This document shows, piece by piece, positions 12,301 to 20,035 of a stretch of DNA of 57,892 nt. How positions within the stretch are numbered: the stretch's first letter is position 1; every line of letters begins with the position of its first letter. Origin of the DNA: a virus (lineage: Duplodnaviria; Caudoviricetes). The notes below the pieces were generated by a model. That model searched no databases. It was not told where the DNA came from and was given only the letters and a program-made list of their open reading frames with translations. Location of the stretch: the IMG/VR virus record IMGVR_UViG_3300048793_000013, positions 1 through 57,892 of that record. The stretch is one strand, 5' to 3'. Position numbers and translations under genes: made by a program.

Positions 12301-13295
12301 ACGCCGAAACCATCCTAGCCATTCCAGTGACGGCACCGGAACGATTGTTTCCACGCGATGCTCACGAGCGCAAGACAAAGTACCATGAGCTTGTCAAGCA
12401 ATGGCATCCTGACGTTGGCGGGTCGGCGGAGGTCTTTGCTCGGATCACGGCACTCCACCAAGCCGCTGAAGAAGGCCGTTGGGGAGCGACGAAAATCCTG
12501 AATATCGTTGACAAGACAGGGAAGGAATATGCCTTCCGGTACCGCGCCCATCATGTTTTCGAATTGGGCGATGTCTATATCGGTTCGCTTACGGTCGGAT
12601 GGTTCATTAAGCGAGAGCACGAAGCCTTGGTGCTTAACGGCCTCCGTGCCATCGGCTCAATCCGATTCCCAGACAACCGCATGAAGGAGCAGCACCAACG
12701 CTTTCTCCCAGTGGTTGCCCGCACAATCGAGACGGCTGACGGCTATCTGGTTCTCATGAACAAGACGGAAGACGTTGTTTCCCTAGCCGATCTTGTGACG
12801 TTCCTTGGACGCATGGACCCCAAGCACGTAGCATGGGTGATTTCCAGCTTGCTCAATATCCTGTGTTTCTATGAGATCATCGGGTTGACACACAACGGAT
12901 TGACGGCAGGAACCGTTTTTGTGTCACCGGAACACCATGCCGCGTTTCCTTTAGGGGGATGGTGGTATGCCATCAAGGCCAAGGGTGTCTTGAAATTCCT
13001 CCCGCCAGCCGTACATGCTGTGGCACCAACAGATGCGGTCGCCAGCAAAGTAGCGGACGGGCGTATTGACCTTGCCTCAGTTCGTGCTATTGGACGCGCT
13101 GCGTTAGGCGACCCCACGGGAGGCCGCCTGCAAAGCGCAACTGATGTACCGAAACCATTAGCCAATTGGCTGAGACTACCACCTCCACGTCGCGCTATCG
13201 ATGACTACGATGCGTGGCAGAAAGTTCTAAAAGACAGTTTCGGGCCAAGGCGATTCCTGGAACTGAAGATCGACACCGCCGCAATCTATAACTGA
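12297..13295 (+). CDS. J-domain (HPD) fused to a degenerate kinase-like domain
   Basis: YHELVKQWHPDVGG J-domain; HVAWVISSLL..GLTHNGL...VFVSPEHH..LGGWWY kinase-like C-lobe. Confidence 0.75.
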   Translation: MNAETILAIPVTAPERLFPRDAHERKTKYHELVKQWHPDVGGSAEVFARITALHQAAEEGRWGATKILNIVDKTGKEYAFRYRAHHVFELGDVYIGSLTVGWFIKREHEALVLNGLRAIGSIRFPDNRMKEQHQRFLPVVARTIETADGYLVLMNKTEDVVSLADLVTFLGRMDPKHVAWVISSLLNILCFYEIIGLTHNGLTAGTVFVSPEHHAAFPLGGWWYAIKAKGVLKFLPPAVHAVAPTDAVASKVADGRIDLASVRAIGRAALGDPTGGRLQSATDVPKPLANWLRLPPPRRAIDDYDAWQKVLKDSFGPRRFLELKIDTAAIYN

Positions 13296-13305
13296 GGGCA
13301 ATACA

Positions 13306-14217
13306 ATGGGCTACAGCCGATACGACGCTGGCATTTACAAGAGCTACGCCAGATCAACCGCGCATATGACGGATCGTGATTACACGGCAACCACGCTCAA
13401 GAAGGACTTTGATCCGCGTCAGATCAAGGTCCGAGAGTCCAAGCGGTCGGACATCAACCCGCACCCGACACCGGTCCTGGTTGGGCTGGACGTTACCGGC
13501 TCAATGGGCCGTGTGGTCGAGGCCATGCGCAAAAGTCTCGGAACGCTGTTCGAGCAAGTCATTGATCGCCATCCGGTCAGTGATCCGCACGTTCTCGCGC
13601 TTGCGATTGGCGATATGGATTGCGACAGTGCACCGATTCAGGCCACTCAATTCGAGGCCGACCCGGTCACCATCGGCAAGCAGATCGAGGACTTGTATTT
13701 GGAACGGGGAGGCGGCGGGAACACCCACGAAAGCTATCTCGGGCCGCTCTACTTCGCCGCCATGCGGACGGATTGCGATGCTTTCACTGAGGGCCGGAAG
13801 GGCTTCCTGTTCACGGTTGGAGATGAGGAACCCCAGACGGTGCTCGACAAGTTTCACGTACAGCGGTTTTTTGGGGACCAGATCGCCAACGATCTCAGCG
13901 CGGCCGATCTTCTCAAGATGATCGAACCAAACTGGCACTATTTCCATCTGATCGTGATGGAGGGTGACTATGCTGGTAGTCGGCCTGATCGAACAGTGAA
14001 GGCATGGTCTGATCTCATGGGGCAGCGTGCCATAAAATTGGTAGACCACCGGAAGATGGCAGAAGTAATCATCAGCCTCGTCGAGGTCACCATCGGCCGG
14101 GACAAGGATGCTATCGCCAAGTCGTGGGGTAAGGGCACCGATCTTGTCGTTGCAACGGCAATCAGTGGGTTGCCGGCGGCACCGGGAGCGGTAGGGGCTG
14201 GCCCGGTAGCTCTGTAA
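13306..14217 (+). CDS. vWA-domain protein
   Basis: GLDVTGSMG MIDAS motif, GGGGNTHESY, FTVGDE. Confidence 0.85.
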   Translation: MGYSRYDAGIYKSYARSTAHMTDRDYTATTLKKDFDPRQIKVRESKRSDINPHPTPVLVGLDVTGSMGRVVEAMRKSLGTLFEQVIDRHPVSDPHVLALAIGDMDCDSAPIQATQFEADPVTIGKQIEDLYLERGGGGNTHESYLGPLYFAAMRTDCDAFTEGRKGFLFTVGDEEPQTVLDKFHVQRFFGDQIANDLSAADLLKMIEPNWHYFHLIVMEGDYAGSRPDRTVKAWSDLMGQRAIKLVDHRKMAEVIISLVEVTIGRDKDAIAKSWGKGTDLVVATAISGLPAAPGAVGAGPVAL

Positions 14218-14238
14218 AACACGCTGGGGGATGGGGAA

Positions 14239-15402
14239 ATGCGTGCGATTGCTGTCATAGATTCAGCCTGGGGAGACAGCGGGAAGGGGGCGGCGGTCGA
14301 TGCTTTGGCTGCCGCCCCCTTCGGCACGCTCGTAGTTCGTCATTCTGGCGGTGCCCAGGCTGGCCATACCGTTGTCACACCGGGCGGCCATCGTCACGTA
14401 TTCAGCCACTTTTGTTCGGGCGCGCTTGCGGGCGCTCCCGGGCACCTCTCCGAGCATTTTGTAGTCAATCCACGCATCTTCTGTGTGGAGCGTTCCGAAC
14501 TGTTTGGAACGAGCGCCAACCTTAATCTGACGGTTGATCCTCGCGCCCTGGTAACCACGCCATTGGACGTAGCTATCAACCGCGCCATGGAGCGCAATCG
14601 AGGAAACAACCGGCATGGCTCTGTCGGCATAGGATTTGGCGAGACGATCGAACGCAGCGAGCGTGGGTTCCCACTGCGCGTTTCCGATCTAATCGACACG
14701 GATAGACTGACTGCCGTGCTCGGCGGGATTATTCTGGATTGGGCACGCAAGCGATGGGACGAACTCGACTTGGAGCAAGAGCGCATCAATTGGGCGTCAT
14801 TCTACGATGAAGCCAAGACGTTCATGAGCCATGTTAAATTGGCTGAACTATCCGATATCGTTCCTCTGTGGGATTGCGGTCTATATTGCACCGTCATATT
14901 CGAGGGCGCGCAAGGCTTGCTGCTTGATCAGCGGCGCGGCATGACGTTCCCATACGTCACAAGATCGAACACCGGCCTGCAAAACGTCCTGCCGATGGCC
15001 GAACAGATCGGGGCGCGAAATCTCCAGGTCGTCTACATGATGCGGCCGTATCTGACGCGGCATGGCGCCGGGCCATTGCCGGGCGAGACTGCGACCCTCG
15101 ACGGCATTGAGGTCGTTGACCCCACTAACCAACACGGAGAGTGGCAAGGTCCATTGCGGTTGGCACCAATGGATTACAGCATAGTAGCCGATGCCATCCG
15201 AGCCGATCTAGCCGAGGCCCCTGGCGTTGAACCATACATTGGAATTTCGTGCCTGGATCAGGTAAAGGATCATGATAGACGGCACGCTATTTCCGATAGG
15301 CTTGAATATGTCATCGGCCATCCGCTCGCCATTGGAGGCCACGGGCCATCGCGTGACAAGTACCAGATCGCGTTCACACAGCCGTTGAGGAAAACGGCAT
15401 GA
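14239..15402 (+). CDS. purA: adenylosuccinate synthetase-family enzyme (divergent PurA-like)
   Basis: WGDSGKG, GGAQAGHT, FEGAQGLLLD, PYVTRSNT, YLTRHGAGP; lacks the GxTTGR aspartate loop. Confidence 0.85.
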   Translation: MRAIAVIDSAWGDSGKGAAVDALAAAPFGTLVVRHSGGAQAGHTVVTPGGHRHVFSHFCSGALAGAPGHLSEHFVVNPRIFCVERSELFGTSANLNLTVDPRALVTTPLDVAINRAMERNRGNNRHGSVGIGFGETIERSERGFPLRVSDLIDTDRLTAVLGGIILDWARKRWDELDLEQERINWASFYDEAKTFMSHVKLAELSDIVPLWDCGLYCTVIFEGAQGLLLDQRRGMTFPYVTRSNTGLQNVLPMAEQIGARNLQVVYMMRPYLTRHGAGPLPGETATLDGIEVVDPTNQHGEWQGPLRLAPMDYSIVADAIRADLAEAPGVEPYIGISCLDQVKDHDRRHAISDRLEYVIGHPLAIGGHGPSRDKYQIAFTQPLRKTA

Positions 15403-15824
15403 GTCGTGTCGCTCCACCATCGCCGCCCGGCAGTCTATTCAAGAGTGACTCACCCAAGCGCAAGCTTGACATGGGGAGACACCCGCGCCAGCGCGACGAG
15501 GCATATCTAGCGGCGCTGAGGGAGTGCCAGTGTCTTTCGTGCGGATTAGACGTAGGATGTGAGGCTGCGCACGTTCGTATGTCACGCGGCCGGGGTACGG
15601 GCGGTGGAATGGGAATGAAATCCAATGATGAACACGCCACGCCTCTATGTTCCGGGTGCCATCGTCAACAGCATGCAGAGGGCGAACAAGTTTTCTGGGA
15701 TGCCATCGACATTATTCCGTTGGATGTTGCAAAAAAGTTACATACAGCGTCGCCAGATGTTGCTAGAATGAGGGCAATCATAGGGGCCGTGCTTATTCGT
15801 TTTAGACACACAGATGCAAAATGA
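15399..15824 (+). CDS. DUF968-like Zn-binding putative nuclease
   Basis: YLAALRECQCLSCG, EAAHVR, GMGMK.ND, PLCSGCHRQQH; last 11 codons lie inside the left inverted repeat. Confidence 0.75.
   Translation: MSRVAPPSPPGSLFKSDSPKRKLDMGRHPRQRDEAYLAALRECQCLSCGLDVGCEAAHVRMSRGRGTGGGMGMKSNDEHATPLCSGCHRQQHAEGEQVFWDAIDIIPLDVAKKLHTASPDVARMRAIIGAVLIRFRHTDAK
15787..15822 (+). repeat. left inverted repeat
   Basis: CCGTGCTTATTCGTTTTAGACACACAGATGCAAAAT; 35/36 match to the reverse complement of 16907-16942. Confidence 0.95.
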
Positions 15825-16900
15825 AGACCGTAACCTATAAATATCGGATCAAGGACCGCAGCGCGCGCAAGACGCTGGCGCGGCACGCTGTGGCGTGCAA
15901 TCAAGTCTGGAACTACTGCAATGCCTTTCAGCAGGACATTGAGCGCCGTTACCGTGCGGGCGCGCCTAAGCGCCGTTGGCCATCGGCGTTTGATCTGGCA
16001 AAACTCTGCAAAGGCACTGGCAAGGAACTCGGCATCCATCAGCAGACAGTCGGCACGATCTGCGATCAATTCGCCAAGAGCCGCGACAAGGCCAAGCACT
16101 CCCTCCGGTTTCGGTCTAGCTTTGGAGTTAACCGAGCACTCGGCTGGATACCGTTTCAAAAGCAGAGCCGACAGGTCGAAGGCAACTCAATTTGGTATCT
16201 CGGCAAGCAATATCGTTTCTTTGGCAGCAAACGTCGCCCATTGCCAGACAATGCCAAAGGCGGGGCTTTTGTTGAGGATGCACTTGGGCGCTGGTACGTC
16301 TGTTTCCATGTCGAGGTGGCAGAGTGCCAGCCACACGGCAACGGCATCATCGGCATTGATTTGGGGTTGCATACGCTGGTGACTACGAGCGCCGGTCAAA
16401 AGATTGAAGCCCCGCGTCACTATCGCGCCTTAGAAGGCAAGCTTGCTGTTGCGCAGCGCGCCCATAATAAGCAGTGCGTGCGGCGCATCCACGCCAAAAT
16501 CAAGAACAGCCGCAATGATTTTCTACATAAGCTTTCGACCACTCTGGCCGATCAGAACGCGTTCATCGCGGTCGGGGATGTCAACTCGAAACAGTTGGCC
16601 AAGACGCGGATGGCGAAATCCGTGTACGACGCCGGCTGGTCTACTTTCCGTTCCATGTTGAAATACAAGTCGGCCGGATACGTGGAAGTAGACGAAAGAT
16701 TCACGACCCAAACCTGCTCTCAGTGCGGTTGTTTGCCGCCTGAGAGGCCGCAAGGTATCGCAGGGCTTGGAATAAGGCAGTGGGATTGTTCCGAATGTGG
16801 TGCAAGCCACGACCGCGATGTGAATAGCGCTCTGAACATTCTCGCCATTGCCGCCCGCAGTGCTGCGGGTCCAGTTGTGGAAAGCCGGGTAGCCGCATGA
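15821..16900 (+). CDS. tnpB: TnpB RNA-guided endonuclease (IS200/IS605 OrfB family)
   Basis: TYKYRI, NQVWNY, GIDLG (RuvC-I), AVGDV with downstream VDERFTTQTCSQC, CSECG-HDRDVNSA (RuvC-III). Confidence 0.93.
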   Translation: MKTVTYKYRIKDRSARKTLARHAVACNQVWNYCNAFQQDIERRYRAGAPKRRWPSAFDLAKLCKGTGKELGIHQQTVGTICDQFAKSRDKAKHSLRFRSSFGVNRALGWIPFQKQSRQVEGNSIWYLGKQYRFFGSKRRPLPDNAKGGAFVEDALGRWYVCFHVEVAECQPHGNGIIGIDLGLHTLVTTSAGQKIEAPRHYRALEGKLAVAQRAHNKQCVRRIHAKIKNSRNDFLHKLSTTLADQNAFIAVGDVNSKQLAKTRMAKSVYDAGWSTFRSMLKYKSAGYVEVDERFTTQTCSQCGCLPPERPQGIAGLGIRQWDCSECGASHDRDVNSALNILAIAARSAAGPVVESRVAA

Positions 16901-16906
16901 CACAAG

Positions 16907-16942
16907 ATTTTGCATCTGTGTGTCTAAAACGGATAAGCACGG
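16907..16942 (-). repeat. right inverted repeat
   Basis: ATTTTGCATCTGTGTGTCTAAAACGGATAAGCACGG. Confidence 0.95.
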
Positions 16943-17029
16943 GACAATCACAATCTCAGAGCACCAATCCCGAGCCGGGCGGGGAACCCGGCATAACCAC
17001 GAGGTAAAATCACCATGAGGGGTTTTCAA

Positions 17030-17866
17030 ATGAAACGCACATCGCTTGCTATCGTCGCACTGGCTCTCTCGGCGACGGCTCACGCGGCCGACATGCCCTT
17101 GCTCAAGGCGCCGGCCAATCAGTGGCTCAACGGGTATCCCGCCACTGACGGATTTTACTTCGGCGCCTATACGCAGGGCGGGGGCGGCTCTGCCGGCGTC
17201 AGTGCCGGGGCGGTTCCTGGGCTCAATTCGGCGACACTCGTCACCAATCAGATCGGCGTCGGCGGCCTCGTTGGCTATGCCTGGAACAACATGGCGGGTA
17301 CTGCCGGCGTCTTCGTCGAGGGCATGTTCGGCTGGCAGAACTTCAACGGCAATACGGTCGGGTTCGCGTTCAATGGTCCGGCCGCATTCGAACAGCGCGT
17401 TGGCTTCTATTCGCCGCTCAATGCATTGATCGGAAATCTCAACCTTCTGCCGGCCGGCCTTGTGGCTCCGCCCTTCCCGCCGCTCCCGTGCGGTCCTACG
17501 ATGGTTCCGGCACAGCCTGCCATTCCGGCGACTGCGACCTCTCCCGGCATCCCGGCAAGGCCCGCAAGCTGGCTGCCAGCCATTGCCGGATGCACTCAGA
17601 CCGCGACCAACGTTAACCCCTACATCATGGCGTCGATAAGTGAACAGGATATCTCGGCAAACTTTTTGGCGACATCGGCGAACCGCGACTGGCGCATCTC
17701 GCCCGGCGTAGGCGTCGGCGCGCTCGGGCATCTGACGAATGGCCTTGTCGTTGATGCATGGGTAGAGGCAAAATTCCCGCAGAAAGGTTTTTGCCTGGGT
17801 AACGTCGGGGTGCTGTGCGGCAACGTTGGGACGCAATACGTCGTCGGCCTCGGATTTAAGTACTGA
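17030..17866 (+). CDS. Omp25/RopB-like outer-membrane beta-barrel protein
   Basis: signal peptide then AADMPLLKAP, GFYFG, VGYAW, C-terminal GLGFKY; Pro-rich insert. Confidence 0.75.
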   Translation: MKRTSLAIVALALSATAHAADMPLLKAPANQWLNGYPATDGFYFGAYTQGGGGSAGVSAGAVPGLNSATLVTNQIGVGGLVGYAWNNMAGTAGVFVEGMFGWQNFNGNTVGFAFNGPAAFEQRVGFYSPLNALIGNLNLLPAGLVAPPFPPLPCGPTMVPAQPAIPATATSPGIPARPASWLPAIAGCTQTATNVNPYIMASISEQDISANFLATSANRDWRISPGVGVGALGHLTNGLVVDAWVEAKFPQKGFCLGNVGVLCGNVGTQYVVGLGFKY

Positions 17867-17957
17867 CAACGCTGACGTTTCGTAGCATAATCAATAACGG
17901 GATGCGTCATGGAGCCCAAGTCGCATCCCACCATTCCCATCCAAACAGGAGAAAACG

Positions 17958-18296
17958 ATGAAAAGAACCATCTTTGCGGCGCTGATTCTCTCCGCACTTC
18001 AATCCGCAGCTTTCGCCGCCACAGCTACGCTGACGTGGACGAATCCCACGCTACGCACGGACGGATCACCGGTCACCGGAGCGTTGACTACCACGATTTT
18101 TGACGGCGGAACCGCGCTCGGTACTGGCACGTCACCGTACCAGACTCCAGTACTCGCGGCCGGCTCGCATTCATTCACTGTCAGGAACTGCGAGGCAGGC
18201 GGCGCGTGTTCCGTAGACAGCAATGCAACAGTGGCGGTTGTCGTCCCTGCCGCTCCCGCTGCCGTGAGCGATCTTACAAGCGTCATCGTGCCATGA
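17958..18296 (+). CDS. secreted FN3/Ig-like protein
   Basis: signal peptide; ATLTWTNPT.RTDGS...GSHSFTV...SVDSN. Confidence 0.65.
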   Translation: MKRTIFAALILSALQSAAFAATATLTWTNPTLRTDGSPVTGALTTTIFDGGTALGTGTSPYQTPVLAAGSHSFTVRNCEAGGACSVDSNATVAVVVPAAPAAVSDLTSVIVP

Positions 18297-18493
18297 GGGT
18301 TCTAGGCGCGGCTGCCATCATTGTGATAGGGGGGCTTTATGCCCCTTTTTCGCATGGTGCCGACTTGCCAATCCCAAAGCCCGATGCTGCGATAGCTGCG
18401 CCTGCGACGGCATGGTGGCACCATAGGCACCATCGACGCCCCCCTAAGCCACCACGCCGCGTGAGGAATCTAAAGGCTATTCTATCCGACTGA
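18293..18493 (+). CDS. small secreted or membrane protein
   Basis: hydrophobic N-terminus, His/Arg-rich tail, ATGA coupling. Confidence 0.45.
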   Translation: MRVLGAAAIIVIGGLYAPFSHGADLPIPKPDAAIAAPATAWWHHRHHRRPPKPPRRVRNLKAILSD

Positions 18494-18508
18494 ACAGGAA
18501 GACAAACC

Positions 18509-19267
18509 ATGGATTACAAATACGGCAAACTCCCCGCTCGGGAGAACCCTCACGCCATCCGGTTCGCCGATTTCGTTGACAAGCGCGAAGTCCTCCCCGC
18601 CGTCCCCGCCGTCTTCGGGCGTGAGAAGGAAGCTGACGCCGCCGGCATGTTGGCAAACGACCAATTCGGCTGTTGCGTATTTAGCGGAGCGGCCCACGAG
18701 ACCCGCCTATGGTCCCGCGAGGGCTCGGGAGCCCCGGTCTCATTCACCGATGCCAACGTCCTCGCGGACTATGGTGCCGTGACCGGCTTCCATGCCGATG
18801 ATCCGTCTACCGATCAGGGTACCGATATGGGTGCCGCTGCGAAATACCGCATGAGTACCGGCATTGTGGACGCCAGCGGCACCCGTCACAAGGTCGCTGC
18901 TGCCCTGGCGCTGCATCCCCGCGATTGGGACCAACTCATGGTTGGGGCTTATCTGTTCGATGCTGTGGGATTTGGTTTCGAAGTCCCGAACACCATCAAC
19001 GATCAGTTTGACCGTCAGGTGCCGTGGGACGTGGTGCCGAATGCAAAGATCGTCGGCGGCCACTACGTCGCCGTGTTCGGACGCAACTCGAAAAGCAACG
19101 GCGTATGCTCTACCTGGGGCCGCGTCCAGGCATTCACCCGTGCATTCTATGAGCGGTACAATGATGAGACATATGCGTATGTCAGTGAGGAAATGCTGCG
19201 CGGCGGCAAGTCGCCACGCGGGTTCGACATGGATGGACTTCGGAAATACTTAGCGGCAATGACGTAA
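18509..19267 (+). CDS. papain-like cysteine peptidase
   Basis: NDQFGCCVFSGAAH, GGHYVAVFG and STWG catalytic pattern. Confidence 0.7.
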   Translation: MDYKYGKLPARENPHAIRFADFVDKREVLPAVPAVFGREKEADAAGMLANDQFGCCVFSGAAHETRLWSREGSGAPVSFTDANVLADYGAVTGFHADDPSTDQGTDMGAAAKYRMSTGIVDASGTRHKVAAALALHPRDWDQLMVGAYLFDAVGFGFEVPNTINDQFDRQVPWDVVPNAKIVGGHYVAVFGRNSKSNGVCSTWGRVQAFTRAFYERYNDETYAYVSEEMLRGGKSPRGFDMDGLRKYLAAMT

Positions 19268-19320
19268 CTGGGAGATCAATTTCCGCCGCTGTTCTGAGCG
19301 GACGGCCTATTCTACGAAGC

Positions 19321-19351
19321 ATCGCCGGCTTACCAAGTGAAAGCCGGCGAT
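19321..19351. terminator. hairpin between convergent operons
   Basis: ATCGCCGGCTT / AAGCCGGCGAT 11-bp stem. Confidence 0.7.
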
Positions 19352-19361
19352 GTATTGTTCC

Positions 19362-19583
19362 TCAGATCGTTGCTGGAATTTTCATGAGGTCGAGCGCGTC
19401 GTCCTCGCGAATTGGAATTTCCGGCAGCGGCGCGTCTGGTGTTCGATCACGTTGAAACGCAATCTTGAAAGCTTCATCGCGGGTGAACCGCCCCGCGCGT
19501 GACGCCATGTCCGTATAGCCGCTGCGAGCAGCGCACCACCATGCGTTGTGCTCGTTGGACCAGATCAGGTAGTTGTCGGCCAT
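19362..19583 (-). CDS. hypothetical phage protein
   Basis: YLIWSNEHNAWW...GYT...AGRFTRDEA; GAGGAG RBS. Confidence 0.65.
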   Translation of the reverse strand: MADNYLIWSNEHNAWWCAARSGYTDMASRAGRFTRDEAFKIAFQRDRTPDAPLPEIPIREDDALDLMKIPATI

Positions 19584-19593
19584 CGATTGCTCC

Positions 19594-19680
19594 TCACTTA
19601 AGGCCATAGACAGCACGAGACTGTTTTCTAATCCACCATAGCGCGGCAACGATCAGAACTGCGACGCCGACACAATTCAT
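19594..19680 (-). CDS. 28-aa single-TM peptide
   Basis: MNCVGVAVLIVAALWWIRKQSRAVYGLK; GAGGAG RBS; fills the intergenic gap exactly. Confidence 0.5.
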   Translation of the reverse strand: MNCVGVAVLIVAALWWIRKQSRAVYGLK

Positions 19681-19690
19681 TTTTGGCTCC

Positions 19691-20035
19691 TCAAAAGGAA
19701 CACGCTACACCGCGAACAAACAGAATTTGCGGATCGGCATGCGGTTCAATTTCTTCGGCGGGGATCAATCCGCGATCCAGGCCGCAGTAGATGCAGGCAA
19801 CCGTCTTGCCTCTTGCTTTAGCCGGCGCCGCGATCGACCGTTCGCAAAAACAGCACACCGCTCCATGCACCGGTTCATCATCCCAATGACGCGCATGCCA
19901 CGGCATGCAACAGCAGAACGGTGCCGGCGGCAAGATGCGAAGCAACGGGCTCTCTCCTGCTGTTTCAGTACCAATCGTCGGCGTTGTAGAAGGCGTGACC
20001 GCTCGGTGTCGCCGCGACCTCGCAACCGTCGTCAT
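19691..20035 (-). CDS. hypothetical Cys-rich protein (start uncertain)
   Basis: CCFC...CIYC motifs; stop followed by an RBS. Confidence 0.45.
   Translation of the reverse strand: MTTVARSRRHRAVTPSTTPTIGTETAGESPLLRILPPAPFCCCMPWHARHWDDEPVHGAVCCFCERSIAAPAKARGKTVACIYCGLDRGLIPAEEIEPHADPQILFVRGVACSF

What the first reader, a model, noticed from the sequence alone, without database searches (positions are those of the whole stretch)
15787..16942. TnpB bracketed by 36-bp inverted repeats that overlap its own start codon
Seen: 15787-15822 and 16907-16942 are 35/36 complementary, and the single mismatch (T15797/G16932) would be a G-U pair in RNA. The left copy ends in the AT of the tnpB ATG; the right copy starts 6 nt after the stop. 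No tnpA is present. Established: IS200/IS605 elements lack terminal IRs, and the TnpB guide derives from sequence 3' of the gene. Three models are inferred: (a) the right copy is a guide to the element's own 5' end, where TTCAT precedes TTTGCATCTG on the minus strand like a TAM; (b) a long-range RNA stem occludes translation; (c) it is an IR-bounded mobile or invertible cassette.
Basis: partly seen in the sequence, partly recalled or inferred. Interest (0 to 1): 0.82.

Follow-up and report, generated by a model that had tools for sequence, protein, structure and literature searches.

The report
TnpB cassette inside IS1595 transposon ends
The inverted repeats around this phage tnpB gene are the terminal repeats of a cut-and-paste IS1595-type transposon that carries the RNA-guided nuclease as its only cargo, an arrangement known in outline since 2023, so it is a good example rather than a new kind of system.

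Summary
Arms 15787-15822 and 16907-16942 are 35/36 complementary, beyond all 100 shuffles.

The repeats are the terminal inverted repeats (TIRs) of an IS1595-family DDE transposon.
- The terminal motif CRTGCTTATCCGGTT occurs in at least 120 viral stretches.
- 33 of 41 non-TnpB pairs carry 8-bp target duplications.
- Elements with the same ends encode Zn_ribbon_IS1595 + DDE_Tnp_IS1595 transposases.
- Similarity between the window and TnpB relatives stops at the repeat edges.

The window element (15788-16941) is a transposase-less cassette whose only gene is tnpB.

The right TIR also closes a covarying RNA fold at the 3' end of tnpB. That fold persists in relatives that lost the left TIR and in tnpB-less 235-253-bp mini-elements. 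It is therefore probably the end of the omega-RNA scaffold, with the guide starting at 16942.

The self-guide, translation-occluding stem and invertible-cassette models are not supported.

DDE-associated TnpBs with inverted ends were published in 2023 (PMC10691335). The scan had already noted this arrangement on other DNA.

Unexplained: the window copy and 8 of 10 TnpB cassettes lack target duplications.

The parts
15788..15822 (+). Left terminal inverted repeat (TIR) of an IS1595-type element. The outer part, CGTGCTTATTCGTTTT, is a variant of the family consensus CATGCTTATCCGGTT. The inner end overlaps the tnpB start codon.
   Evidence: Similarity to relatives starts at 15782-15790. An X3 contig with a different upstream sequence breaks exactly at 15788.
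15821..16900 (+). tnpB, 359 aa, the only gene of the cassette. RuvC-I D180 and RuvC-III D333 are invariant among relatives. The canonical RuvC-II site reads G252-D253 (N in relatives). E289 and E292 are invariant, which fits a rearranged RuvC-II type.
   Evidence: PMC10691335 section 8.
16852..16941 (+). 3' domain of the presumed omega-RNA scaffold. Helix 1 pairs 16853-16858 with 16865-16870. Helix 2 pairs 16871-16873 with 16878-16880. The closing helix pairs GCCGG 16885-16888 with 16929-16932, which lies inside the right TIR. Conserved blocks extend upstream to about 16742.
   Evidence: R1 scores 78 bits here, but this sequence is in the training set.
16907..16941 (-). Right TIR, ending ...GGATAAGCACG. 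It also forms the 3' end of the RNA scaffold.
   Evidence: Similarity to relatives ends at 16941/16942.
16942..16961 (+). Predicted guide region, the flank immediately 3' of the right end. This is inferred; its length is not known.
   Evidence: Sequence becomes variable right after GCACG in 22 of 22 aligned relatives. The rest is by analogy with TnpB systems (PMC10691335 section 9).
15399..15824 (+). Upstream DUF968/HNH-like phage gene. Its last 12 codons are read from the left TIR, and its TGA overlaps the tnpB ATG.
   Evidence: Two homologues align only to residue 128 and end about 10 residues later.
15780..15787 (.). Left 8-bp flank, ATAGGGGC. The right flank at 16942-16949 is GGACAATC, so only 2 of 8 match and this copy has no target-site duplication.

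Best explanation
The 1154-bp unit 15788-16941 is a non-autonomous IS1595-family (DDE, cut-and-paste) transposon cassette. Its two 35-nt arms are the transposon's terminal inverted repeats, and its only cargo is tnpB with its guide-RNA scaffold.

Shown:
- The same terminal sequence bounds many unrelated cassettes and full IS1595 elements in phage contigs.
- Most of those carry 8-bp target duplications.
- Similarity between TnpB relatives ends at the repeat edges.

Inferred:
- An IS1595 transposase encoded elsewhere binds both arms and moves the cassette.
- tnpB is expressed by read-through from the upstream phage operon.
- The 3' end of the tnpB transcript folds into an omega-RNA whose last helix uses the CCGG of the right TIR.
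- The guide is read from the flank beginning at 16942.
- TnpB then cuts cassette-free copies of that site, for example in co-infecting phages, and so favours retention or homing.

The complementarity of the two arms is a by-product of both being binding sites for one transposase. The confidence given is for the identity of the repeats as IS1595-type TIRs of a tnpB cargo cassette; the RNA and guide part alone I put at about 0.6.
For: (1) Boundaries. blastn of window 12821-19900 against 8 TnpB loci matches only 15782/15790 to 16941/16942 in the TIR-bearing ones, and the flanks are unrelated.

(2) Family. Among loci L012-L131 there are 41 non-redundant non-TnpB pairs of 184-1968 bp, and 33 of 41 have 7-8/8 matching 8-bp flanks.

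(3) Transposase. Five elements of 1.7-2.0 kb with these ends encode 346-350-aa proteins. All 3 of 3 scanned have DDE_Tnp_IS1595 (E 7e-34 to 9e-32) plus Zn_ribbon_IS1595. Both of 2 scanned hit NF033547 at 182-189 bits against a cut-off of 75. IS1595 members are described as having 8-bp TSDs and these two domains (PMC8101967, passages).

(4) Other cargo between the same ends includes D12 and N6_N4 DNA methylases. The window's inner TIR type, TTTAGACACACAG, also bounds non-TnpB cassettes such as L015 and L042, which have TSDs.

(5) TnpB relatives L140 and L213 have perfect 8-bp TSDs.

(6) The one 100%-complete phage record examined (G001) holds three TnpB cassettes and an IS1595 transposase gene.

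(7) RNA. Helices 1 and 2 have 97.5% of cells paired and 44 cells with double changes, against 13.9 in shuffles; 0 of 500 shuffles reach this, and slid controls give 30-47% paired. The RE motif follows the stop codon in relatives that lack a left TIR. RE-bearing TnpBs form one subclade in which 'both ends' and 'RE only' are interspersed. tnpB-less mini-elements keep the fold. Model R1 scores at least 50 bits at 7 places, all ending GCACG; ordinary cassette ends score 22.5 bits or less.

(8) Published precedent. All six DDE-associated TnpB branches have inverted terminal repeats, and solo TnpBs occur between the same ends (PMC10691335 section 9).
Against: - The window copy has no target duplication (2 of 8). 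Only 2 of 10 TnpB cassettes with both TIRs have one, against 33 of 41 other cassettes (Fisher p = 6e-4; p = 4e-3 when restricted to exact-motif ends). The two sets were collected differently.
- No IS1595 transposase is in the window, although the record is 67% complete.
- The window TIRs deviate from the consensus at 2-3 positions. One of these breaks a pair of the closing helix.
- The closing helix shows only one-sided changes, so covariation does not prove it.
- No TAM could be derived: flanks upstream of six reconstructed empty sites share no motif.
- No RNA data exist.
- The tree is the quick version, not the finished careful search.
Confidence: 0.85

Rival explanations
1. The cassette is an immobilised remnant. 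It arrived as an IS1595-type cassette but can no longer move, and tnpB with the right end is kept for a phage function.
For: There is no TSD. The TIR deviates from the consensus. No transposase is in the record. Many relatives keep only the right end (11 RE-only against 9 with both ends). The gene is embedded in a phage operon with an ATGA overlap and no promoter-like site.
Against: Both arms are still 35/36 alike, and both share the derived T at TIR position 13. The record is incomplete. The closest relatives, L132 and L133, sit in unrelated flanks, so this lineage moved recently.
Confidence: 0.25
2. Long-range RNA stem. The two arms pair in the mRNA to hide the start codon or to direct processing, and this pairing is why they are kept complementary.
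For: A 35-bp duplex would form if one transcript holds both arms. The single mismatch is U-G.
Against: Equally long arms bound cassettes with other cargo and full transposons. The arm-to-start distance varies from 2 to 58 nt. Mismatches are 3 G-U against 4 A-C. Relatives function without a left arm. Pairing with the left arm would compete with the covarying scaffold helix.
Confidence: 0.05
3. Self-targeting guide. The right arm is the omega-RNA guide directed at the element's own left end, with TTCAT as the TAM.
For: The arms are complementary, and the right arm lies 3' of tnpB.
Against: The right arm is conserved across relatives with unrelated flanks, whereas guides vary. It takes part in the scaffold fold. 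It persists where no left arm exists. TTCAT is not conserved.
Confidence: 0.02
4. An ordinary IS200/IS605 or IS607 solo-tnpB element (IS1341 type) whose ends happen to be inverted repeats, or an invertible segment.
For: The TnpB protein family matches. The window copy has no TSD.
Against: No Y1 or serine recombinase is in the window or next to 9 neighbouring ORFs of 8 RE-only relatives. The ends are symmetric and identical to those of IS1595 elements. Relatives have 8-bp TSDs. No inverted joint was seen (contigs only).
Confidence: 0.03

Closest known systems
DDE-transposase-associated TnpB branches (DDE-1 to DDE-6) and solo TnpBs between the same ends; Altae-Tran et al. 2023, PNAS (PMC10691335; section 8 read whole, passages of sections 5, 9 and 10)
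   Same: TnpB sits between symmetric inverted terminal repeats of a DDE transposon. The tnpB 3' end lies within 250 bp of the transposon end (here 41 nt). Solo TnpB occurs with the ends of transposase-bearing elements, implying mobilisation in trans. The RuvC-II site is rearranged, with Gly at the canonical position and an alternative Glu.
   Different: The main text names only IS630 (DDE-6) as a partner. Whether one of the other branches is IS1595 is in figures and supplements that I could not see. Details seen here but not in the passages read: the TIR itself closes the guide-RNA fold, the tnpB-less mini-elements keep that fold, and the TnpB cassettes have a deficit of TSDs.
IS1595 family insertion sequences (ISSod11-like group); Siguier et al. 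2009 as summarised in PMC8101967 (passages)
   Same: [quoted passage not shown] Some family members carry passenger genes (recalled).
   Different: The window element has no transposase and no TSD. The match of its ends to the ISSod11 end consensus (nnnGcnTATC) is recalled from ISfinder and was not tested with a tool.
IS200/IS605 and IS607 tnpB elements (IS1341-type solo tnpB)
   Same: The same nuclease family; the guide RNA overlaps the 3' end of tnpB and runs to the right end, with the guide taken from the flank.
   Different: Those elements have asymmetric ends with subterminal hairpins, no TIRs and no TSDs, and use Y1 or serine TnpA. Here the ends are symmetric TIRs shared with DDE elements.
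Eukaryotic Fanzor nucleases riding TIR transposons (PMC3627910 and PMC10711439; search listing and abstract starts only)
   Same: A TnpB-family nuclease as passenger of cut-and-paste TIR transposons, with a rearranged RuvC site. IS1595 is the bacterial relative of the eukaryotic Merlin superfamily (PMC8101967).
   Different: This is a bacteriophage setting. No phylogenetic link to Fanzors was tested here.

Membership tests
IS1595 family (non-autonomous member) | Terminal inverted repeats shared with transposase-bearing family members | tested here: met
   The window arms match the consensus CATGCTTATCCGGTT with 1-2 changes in the 13-nt core. The same ends bound elements encoding IS1595 transposases.
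IS1595 family (non-autonomous member) | 8-bp target-site duplication | tested here: not met
   The window flanks ATAGGGGC and GGACAATC match at 2 of 8 positions. The feature is met in relatives: L140 and L213 at 8/8, and 33 of 41 non-TnpB cassettes.
IS1595 family (non-autonomous member) | Transposase with Zn_ribbon_IS1595 and DDE_Tnp_IS1595 domains | tested here: not met
   None is in the element or in the 57.9-kb record, which is 67% complete. The cassette is therefore non-autonomous. The transposase is present in 1 of 5 records searched (G001, 122 bits).
IS1595 family, ISSod11 group | End consensus of the group | not tested
   The consensus is recalled from ISfinder and comes from no call. 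The library searches did not return the table.
IS200/IS605 (IS1341-type) | Asymmetric ends with subterminal hairpins, no TIRs, no TSD, Y1 TnpA in cis or trans | tested here: not met
   The TIRs are symmetric and 35 nt long. Relatives have 8-bp TSDs. No Y1_Tnp is in the window. NF038281 IS200_TnpB scores 151.5 bits, below its 425-bit cut-off.
IS607 | Serine recombinase TnpA; no TIRs, no TSD | tested here: not met
   No Resolvase domain is in the window. NF038280 scores 86 bits, below its 350-bit cut-off. PMC6188088 abstract start: IS607 elements lack TIRs and TSDs.
TnpB RNA-guided nuclease | OrfB_IS605/RuvC and Zn-finger (TNB) domains | tested here: met
   Pfam PF01385 at 2e-16 and PF07282 at 3.7e-19. 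NF040570 scores 206.8 bits against a cut-off of 100. The ISDra2 TnpB structures are hit at 1.1e-22.
TnpB RNA-guided nuclease | Intact catalytic site | tested here: inconclusive
   D180 and D333 are invariant. The canonical RuvC-II position is G252 followed by D or N. E289 and E292 are invariant. This fits the published 'RIIr' rearrangement, but neither geometry nor activity was tested.
TnpB RNA-guided nuclease | Omega-RNA overlapping the 3' end of the gene and ending at the transposon end | tested here: inconclusive
   A covarying fold is supported. No RNA data exist, and Rfam gives no match.
DDE-associated TnpB (Altae-Tran 2023) | Inverted terminal repeats; tnpB 3' end within 250 bp of the end; solo copies with the ends of transposase-bearing elements | tested here: met
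   The distance from the stop codon to the element end is 41 nt.

The most novel reading that the evidence does not exclude
In this phage lineage the right end of a DDE transposon has been fused with the omega-RNA, so that one 13-nt sequence serves both as transposase site and as the last scaffold helix. TnpB-bearing copies may then spread mainly by RNA-guided cutting and recombinational copying between co-infecting phages, not by transposase. That would explain three things. First, 8 of 10 copies lack target duplications, while 33 of 41 other cassettes have them. Second, the right end is kept after repeated loss of the left end. Third, tnpB-less mini-elements carrying only the RNA fold multiply as guide-only satellites.
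Probability: 0.2. Interest if true: 0.7.

Novelty: new member of a known kind. Interest (0 to 1): 0.4.

Why it matters
This settles a puzzling feature with an ordinary cause: the repeats are transposon ends, not a guide or a riboswitch-like stem. It documents that TnpB rides IS1595-type cut-and-paste transposons in soil and peat phages, alongside a large family of single-gene cassettes (DNA methylases and small ORFs) that use the same ends. That parallels how eukaryotic Fanzors ride TIR transposons. If the RNA assignment holds, the scaffold-guide junction is defined to the base (16941|16942), which makes this compact 359-aa, rearranged-RuvC nuclease directly testable. The deficit of target duplications in TnpB cassettes, and the guide-RNA-only mini-elements, are concrete leads on how an RNA-guided nuclease helps a DDE transposon. 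That question is open beyond IS605.

Tried and rejected
- Rfam scan of 15000-18000 at E up to 1: no match.
- blastn of 14200-18300 against 50,697 phage records: one 101-nt tnpB hit, no related annotated phage.
- Empty site: homologues of the upstream DUF968 protein are only 40-50% identical (5 loci). They show where the native C-terminus should end but not the empty site.
- Excising 15788-16941 (or 15787-16942) leaves an open in-frame continuation. However, all three frames are open for 17-24 codons, and the tail resembles neither homologue.
- Sequencing runs: no RNA holder is listed. Only contigs could be laid. No contig skips the element and none is inverted. Contigs drop rare variants, so this says nothing about excision.
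- TAM: flanks upstream of six reconstructed empty sites (two TnpB cassettes, four mini-elements) share no motif. The 5 nt before the left end share none either.
- Promoter scan of 15300-17100: 0 sites against 0.9 expected.
- Neighbours of RE-only relatives: of 9 ORFs scanned, 7 match no family, one is MT-A70 and one is YqaJ; none is a transposase.
- G-U bias in arm mismatches: 3 wobble against 4 A-C, the latter all at TIR position 2; not informative.
- The transposase gene in G001 has a matching TIR on one side only within the 3.5 kb fetched.
- Literature: searches 'TnpB'+'IS1595' (9 papers, none on this topic), 'IS1595'/'passenger gene'/'bacteriophage'/'ISSod11' and 'IS1595 family'/'ISSod11'/'ISNwi1'/'ISPna2' found no description of TnpB in IS1595 ends. 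The supplements of PMC10691335, which list the DDE branches, are closed and may name it.
- Not used: large protein database searches, structure prediction and complex prediction. None would change the reading.
- Rows dropped: from the tree, proteins with stops, under 300 aa or duplicated (68 kept). L153 was left out of the RNA alignments because its motif hit is doubtful. L150 was omitted from A2/A4 as near-identical to L149.
Full report
**Observation.** The window is an IMG/VR viral record of 57,892 bases, 67% complete. The repeat finder gives arms 15787-15822 and 16907-16942: 36 nt, 97% complementary, 1084 nt apart. The one mismatch is T15797 against G16932. The ORF between them (15821-16900, 359 aa) is a TnpB. 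Pfam gives OrfB_IS605 at 2e-16 and Cas12f1-like_TNB at 3.7e-19. NCBIfam guided_TnpB scores 206.8 bits. phmmer hits the ISDra2 TnpB structures at 1.1e-22. The left arm ends in the AT of the ATG, and the right arm starts 6 nt after the stop. The longest exact inverted repeat in the window is the 25-nt run in this pair; 100 dinucleotide shuffles give a mean of 16.4 and a maximum of 22. No Y1 transposase or serine recombinase is detectable in the record.

**What the repeats are.** A first scan found 8 viral loci with TnpB relatives of 54-87% identity. Five of the 8 (four distinct elements) have inverted repeats in the same position. The outer part, TGCTTATCCGGTT, is conserved, while the inner part differs between loci yet still matches between the two arms of each locus. 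blastn of window 12821-19900 against these loci aligns only 15782/15790 to 16941/16942, and the flanks are unrelated. The repeat-bounded unit is therefore a discrete insertion found in different contexts.

Many carry a + and a - copy 184-1968 bp apart. After removing redundancy, 41 such pairs without tnpB remain, and 33 of 41 are flanked by 8-bp direct repeats matching at 7-8 of 8 positions.

Five pairs of 1.7-2.0 kb encode 346-350-aa proteins. All three that I scanned carry Zn_ribbon_IS1595 and DDE_Tnp_IS1595 (E 7e-34 to 9e-32). Both that I scanned with NCBIfam are 'IS1595 family transposase' (182 and 189 bits, cut-off 75). TIRs, 8-bp duplications and exactly these two domains are the published description of the IS1595 family (PMC8101967, passages).

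Other pairs carry a D12 methylase, an N6_N4 methylase or small ORFs without a family. The window's inner TIR type (TTTAGACACACAG) also bounds such non-TnpB cassettes with perfect duplications, for example L015 and L042. The repeats are therefore the TIRs of an IS1595-type transposon, and the window element (15788-16941) is a transposase-less cassette with tnpB as cargo.

My recollection is that the ends fit the ISSod11 group consensus. That comes from no call.

**Relatives of the TnpB.** An alignment-based scan gave 79 viral and 26 genomic loci. The named hosts are mostly Alphaproteobacteria. A motif like CCGGATAAGCA follows the stop codon in nearly all relatives of about 55% identity or more, including many with no left TIR.

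Among 68 distinct full-length proteins, 9 have both ends, 11 have only the right end, 1 has the right end with no left flank held, 1 has a doubtful left-only hit, and 46 have neither. In the quick maximum-likelihood tree the right-end-bearing proteins fall in one subclade of 26 rows (SH-aLRT 92). Within it, 'both' and 'right end only' are interspersed, and the well-supported branches force at least 5-6 changes of state. The right end has thus been kept through repeated loss of the left end.

No Y1 or serine transposase is encoded next to the right-end-only relatives (9 neighbouring ORFs scanned).

**The RNA.** Aligning the last 200 nt up to the right end of 22 distinct relatives gives two hairpins inside the end of the ORF, with many compensatory changes. 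It also gives a closing helix between a conserved GCCGG and the CCGG of the right TIR.

Counted on the named structure, 97.5% of cells are paired, against 77.9% in shuffles. There are 44 cells with double changes, against 13.9 in shuffles, and 0 of 500 shuffles reach this. Slid controls give 30-47% paired. Helices 1 and 2 carry the covariation. The closing helix shows only G-C to G-U changes, so it is consistent but not proven. Sequence becomes variable immediately after ...GCACG in all 22.

In the 117-kb phage record G001 there are 235-253-bp mini-elements with the same TIRs; two of the three in L144, and L030, have 8-bp duplications. They have no tnpB but keep about 130 nt alignable to the tnpB 3' region, including both hairpins with fresh compensatory changes and the closing helix.

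A covariance model of the 3' domain was searched over the window plus 99 TIR-motif loci (0.92 Mb). It scores at least 50 bits at 7 places, all ending GCACG: the window, two tnpB cassettes, two mini-elements and two loci cut too short to tell. Ordinary cassette ends, which end GCATG, score 22.5 bits or less.

I conclude that the right TIR is also the 3' end of the omega-RNA scaffold and that the guide is read from 16942 onward. This is an inference, since no RNA data are available.

**The nuclease.** RuvC-I D180, RuvC-III D333 and the four zinc-finger cysteines are invariant among seven relatives. The canonical RuvC-II position reads invariant G252 followed by D or N. E289 and E292, just before the zinc finger, are invariant. 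This matches the published RuvC-II rearrangement, with Gly at the canonical position and a compensating Glu on the next strand, which is judged to be active (PMC10691335 section 8). I did not test geometry or activity.

**How it most likely works.** Shown: the identity of the ends, the discreteness of the insertion, and the covarying RNA fold. Inferred: the following chain.
- An IS1595 transposase supplied in trans moves the cassette. Of five records searched, only G001 (the one complete genome, which holds three TnpB cassettes) has such a gene.
- tnpB is translated by coupling to the upstream DUF968 gene. There is an ATGA overlap and no promoter-like site in the element.
- The omega-RNA is cut from the 3' end of the transcript.
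- The RNP cuts cassette-free copies of the flank, aiding retention or homing.

The insertion replaced about the last 9 codons of the DUF968 gene with 12 TIR-encoded ones.

Model (c), a mobile IR-bounded cassette, is right. Inversion has no support.

Model (a), a self-directed guide, fails for three reasons. The right arm is conserved scaffold and not variable guide. It persists without a left arm. TTCAT is not conserved.

Model (b), a start-occluding stem, is not a conserved design for three reasons. The arm-to-start distance ranges from 2 to 58 nt. Other cargo has the same arms. Arm mismatches are 3 G-U against 4 A-C.

**What does not fit.** The window copy has no target duplication (ATAGGGGC against GGACAATC). 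Only 2 of 10 TnpB cassettes with both TIRs have one (L140, L213), against 33 of 41 other cassettes. Fisher's test gives p = 6e-4, or p = 4e-3 for 1 of 6 when restricted to exact-motif ends. The two sets were ascertained differently.

Age does not obviously explain this. L149 and L151 are 100% identical over 1116 nt within one genome, yet L151 has no duplication.

All omega-RNA-bearing right ends have CAC before the last base (21 CACG and 1 CACA of 22), whereas the other cassettes end CATG. Recombination between copies, or an RNA-guided homing route, could produce such copies. I could not test either.

**Comparison with what is known.** Altae-Tran et al. 2023 report that all six DDE-transposase-associated TnpB branches have inverted terminal repeats. 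They also report that the tnpB 3' end lies within 250 bp of the transposon end, and that solo TnpBs occur between ends nearly identical to those of transposase-bearing elements, implying trans mobilisation. IS630 is the only partner named in the main text (PMC10691335, passages of section 9).

My library searches found no paper linking TnpB with IS1595. The paper's supplements are closed and may name it.

Earlier notes of this scan describe the same arrangement on other genomes. I reached my reading before seeing them, and they are not independent evidence.

**Verdict.** This is a real feature and a new member of a known kind. Useful details on the RNA-TIR fusion, the guide-only mini-elements and the missing duplications remain to be explained.

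Noticed in passing
L012-L131 (viral contigs), e.g. L023:1012-1776, L075:1817-2665, L035:3727-5491: A large family of single-gene cassettes in phage contigs shares the IS1595-type ends and 8-bp duplications. Cargo includes D12 and N6_N4 DNA methylases, a C5-methylase-like ORF next to the transposase, and small ORFs of no family. Cargo ORFs usually start 34-44 nt from the end, right after the TIR.
   Followed up: partly
L144:517-769, 1385-1619, 2220-2454; L030:3334-3574; L019:5664-5738 (all record G001): These are 235-253-bp TIR mini-elements without tnpB that keep the omega-RNA-like 3' fold and end in CACG. Three have perfect 8-bp duplications, and one is inserted at the edge of a TnpB cassette's left end. 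They are candidate guide-only satellites.
   Followed up: partly
window 15780-15787 and 16942-16949; L132, L133, L139, L144, L150, L151, L152: Eight of 10 TnpB cassettes with both TIRs lack target duplications, whereas 33 of 41 other cassettes have them. This is unexplained.
   Followed up: partly
window 16938-16941 and the right ends in alignment A2: Right ends that carry the RNA fold read CAC before the last base (21 CACG and 1 CACA of 22). Cassettes without the fold end CATG. The difference sits at the presumed scaffold-guide junction.
   Followed up: no
window 15399-15824 with 16942-17010: The upstream DUF968/HNH-like gene now ends in 12 TIR-encoded codons. Removing the cassette leaves an open in-frame tail, but all three frames are open there and the tail resembles no homologue. 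Restoration of the gene cannot be judged.
   Followed up: partly
L006 / L134:2501-3565: A 79%-identical tnpB has one in-frame stop (HQ*TVG) and no left TIR; only a degenerate right-end motif remains. It is either a decaying copy or a recoded stop.
   Followed up: no
L152:3651-3675: The right end is followed by a partial duplicate of its own last 11 nt (CGATAAGCACG). This looks like a repair or slippage scar at the junction.
   Followed up: no
L149 and L151 (record G001): Two TnpB cassettes are 100% identical over 1116 nt in one phage genome but have different right flanks. One lies at the contig end, so the assembly may have broken in the repeat.
   Followed up: partly
window 16565-16595 and 16866-16912: The contigs of run X1 break at these places inside and near the cassette. 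Variant short contigs overlap there, as expected if related copies exist in the same metagenome.
   Followed up: no
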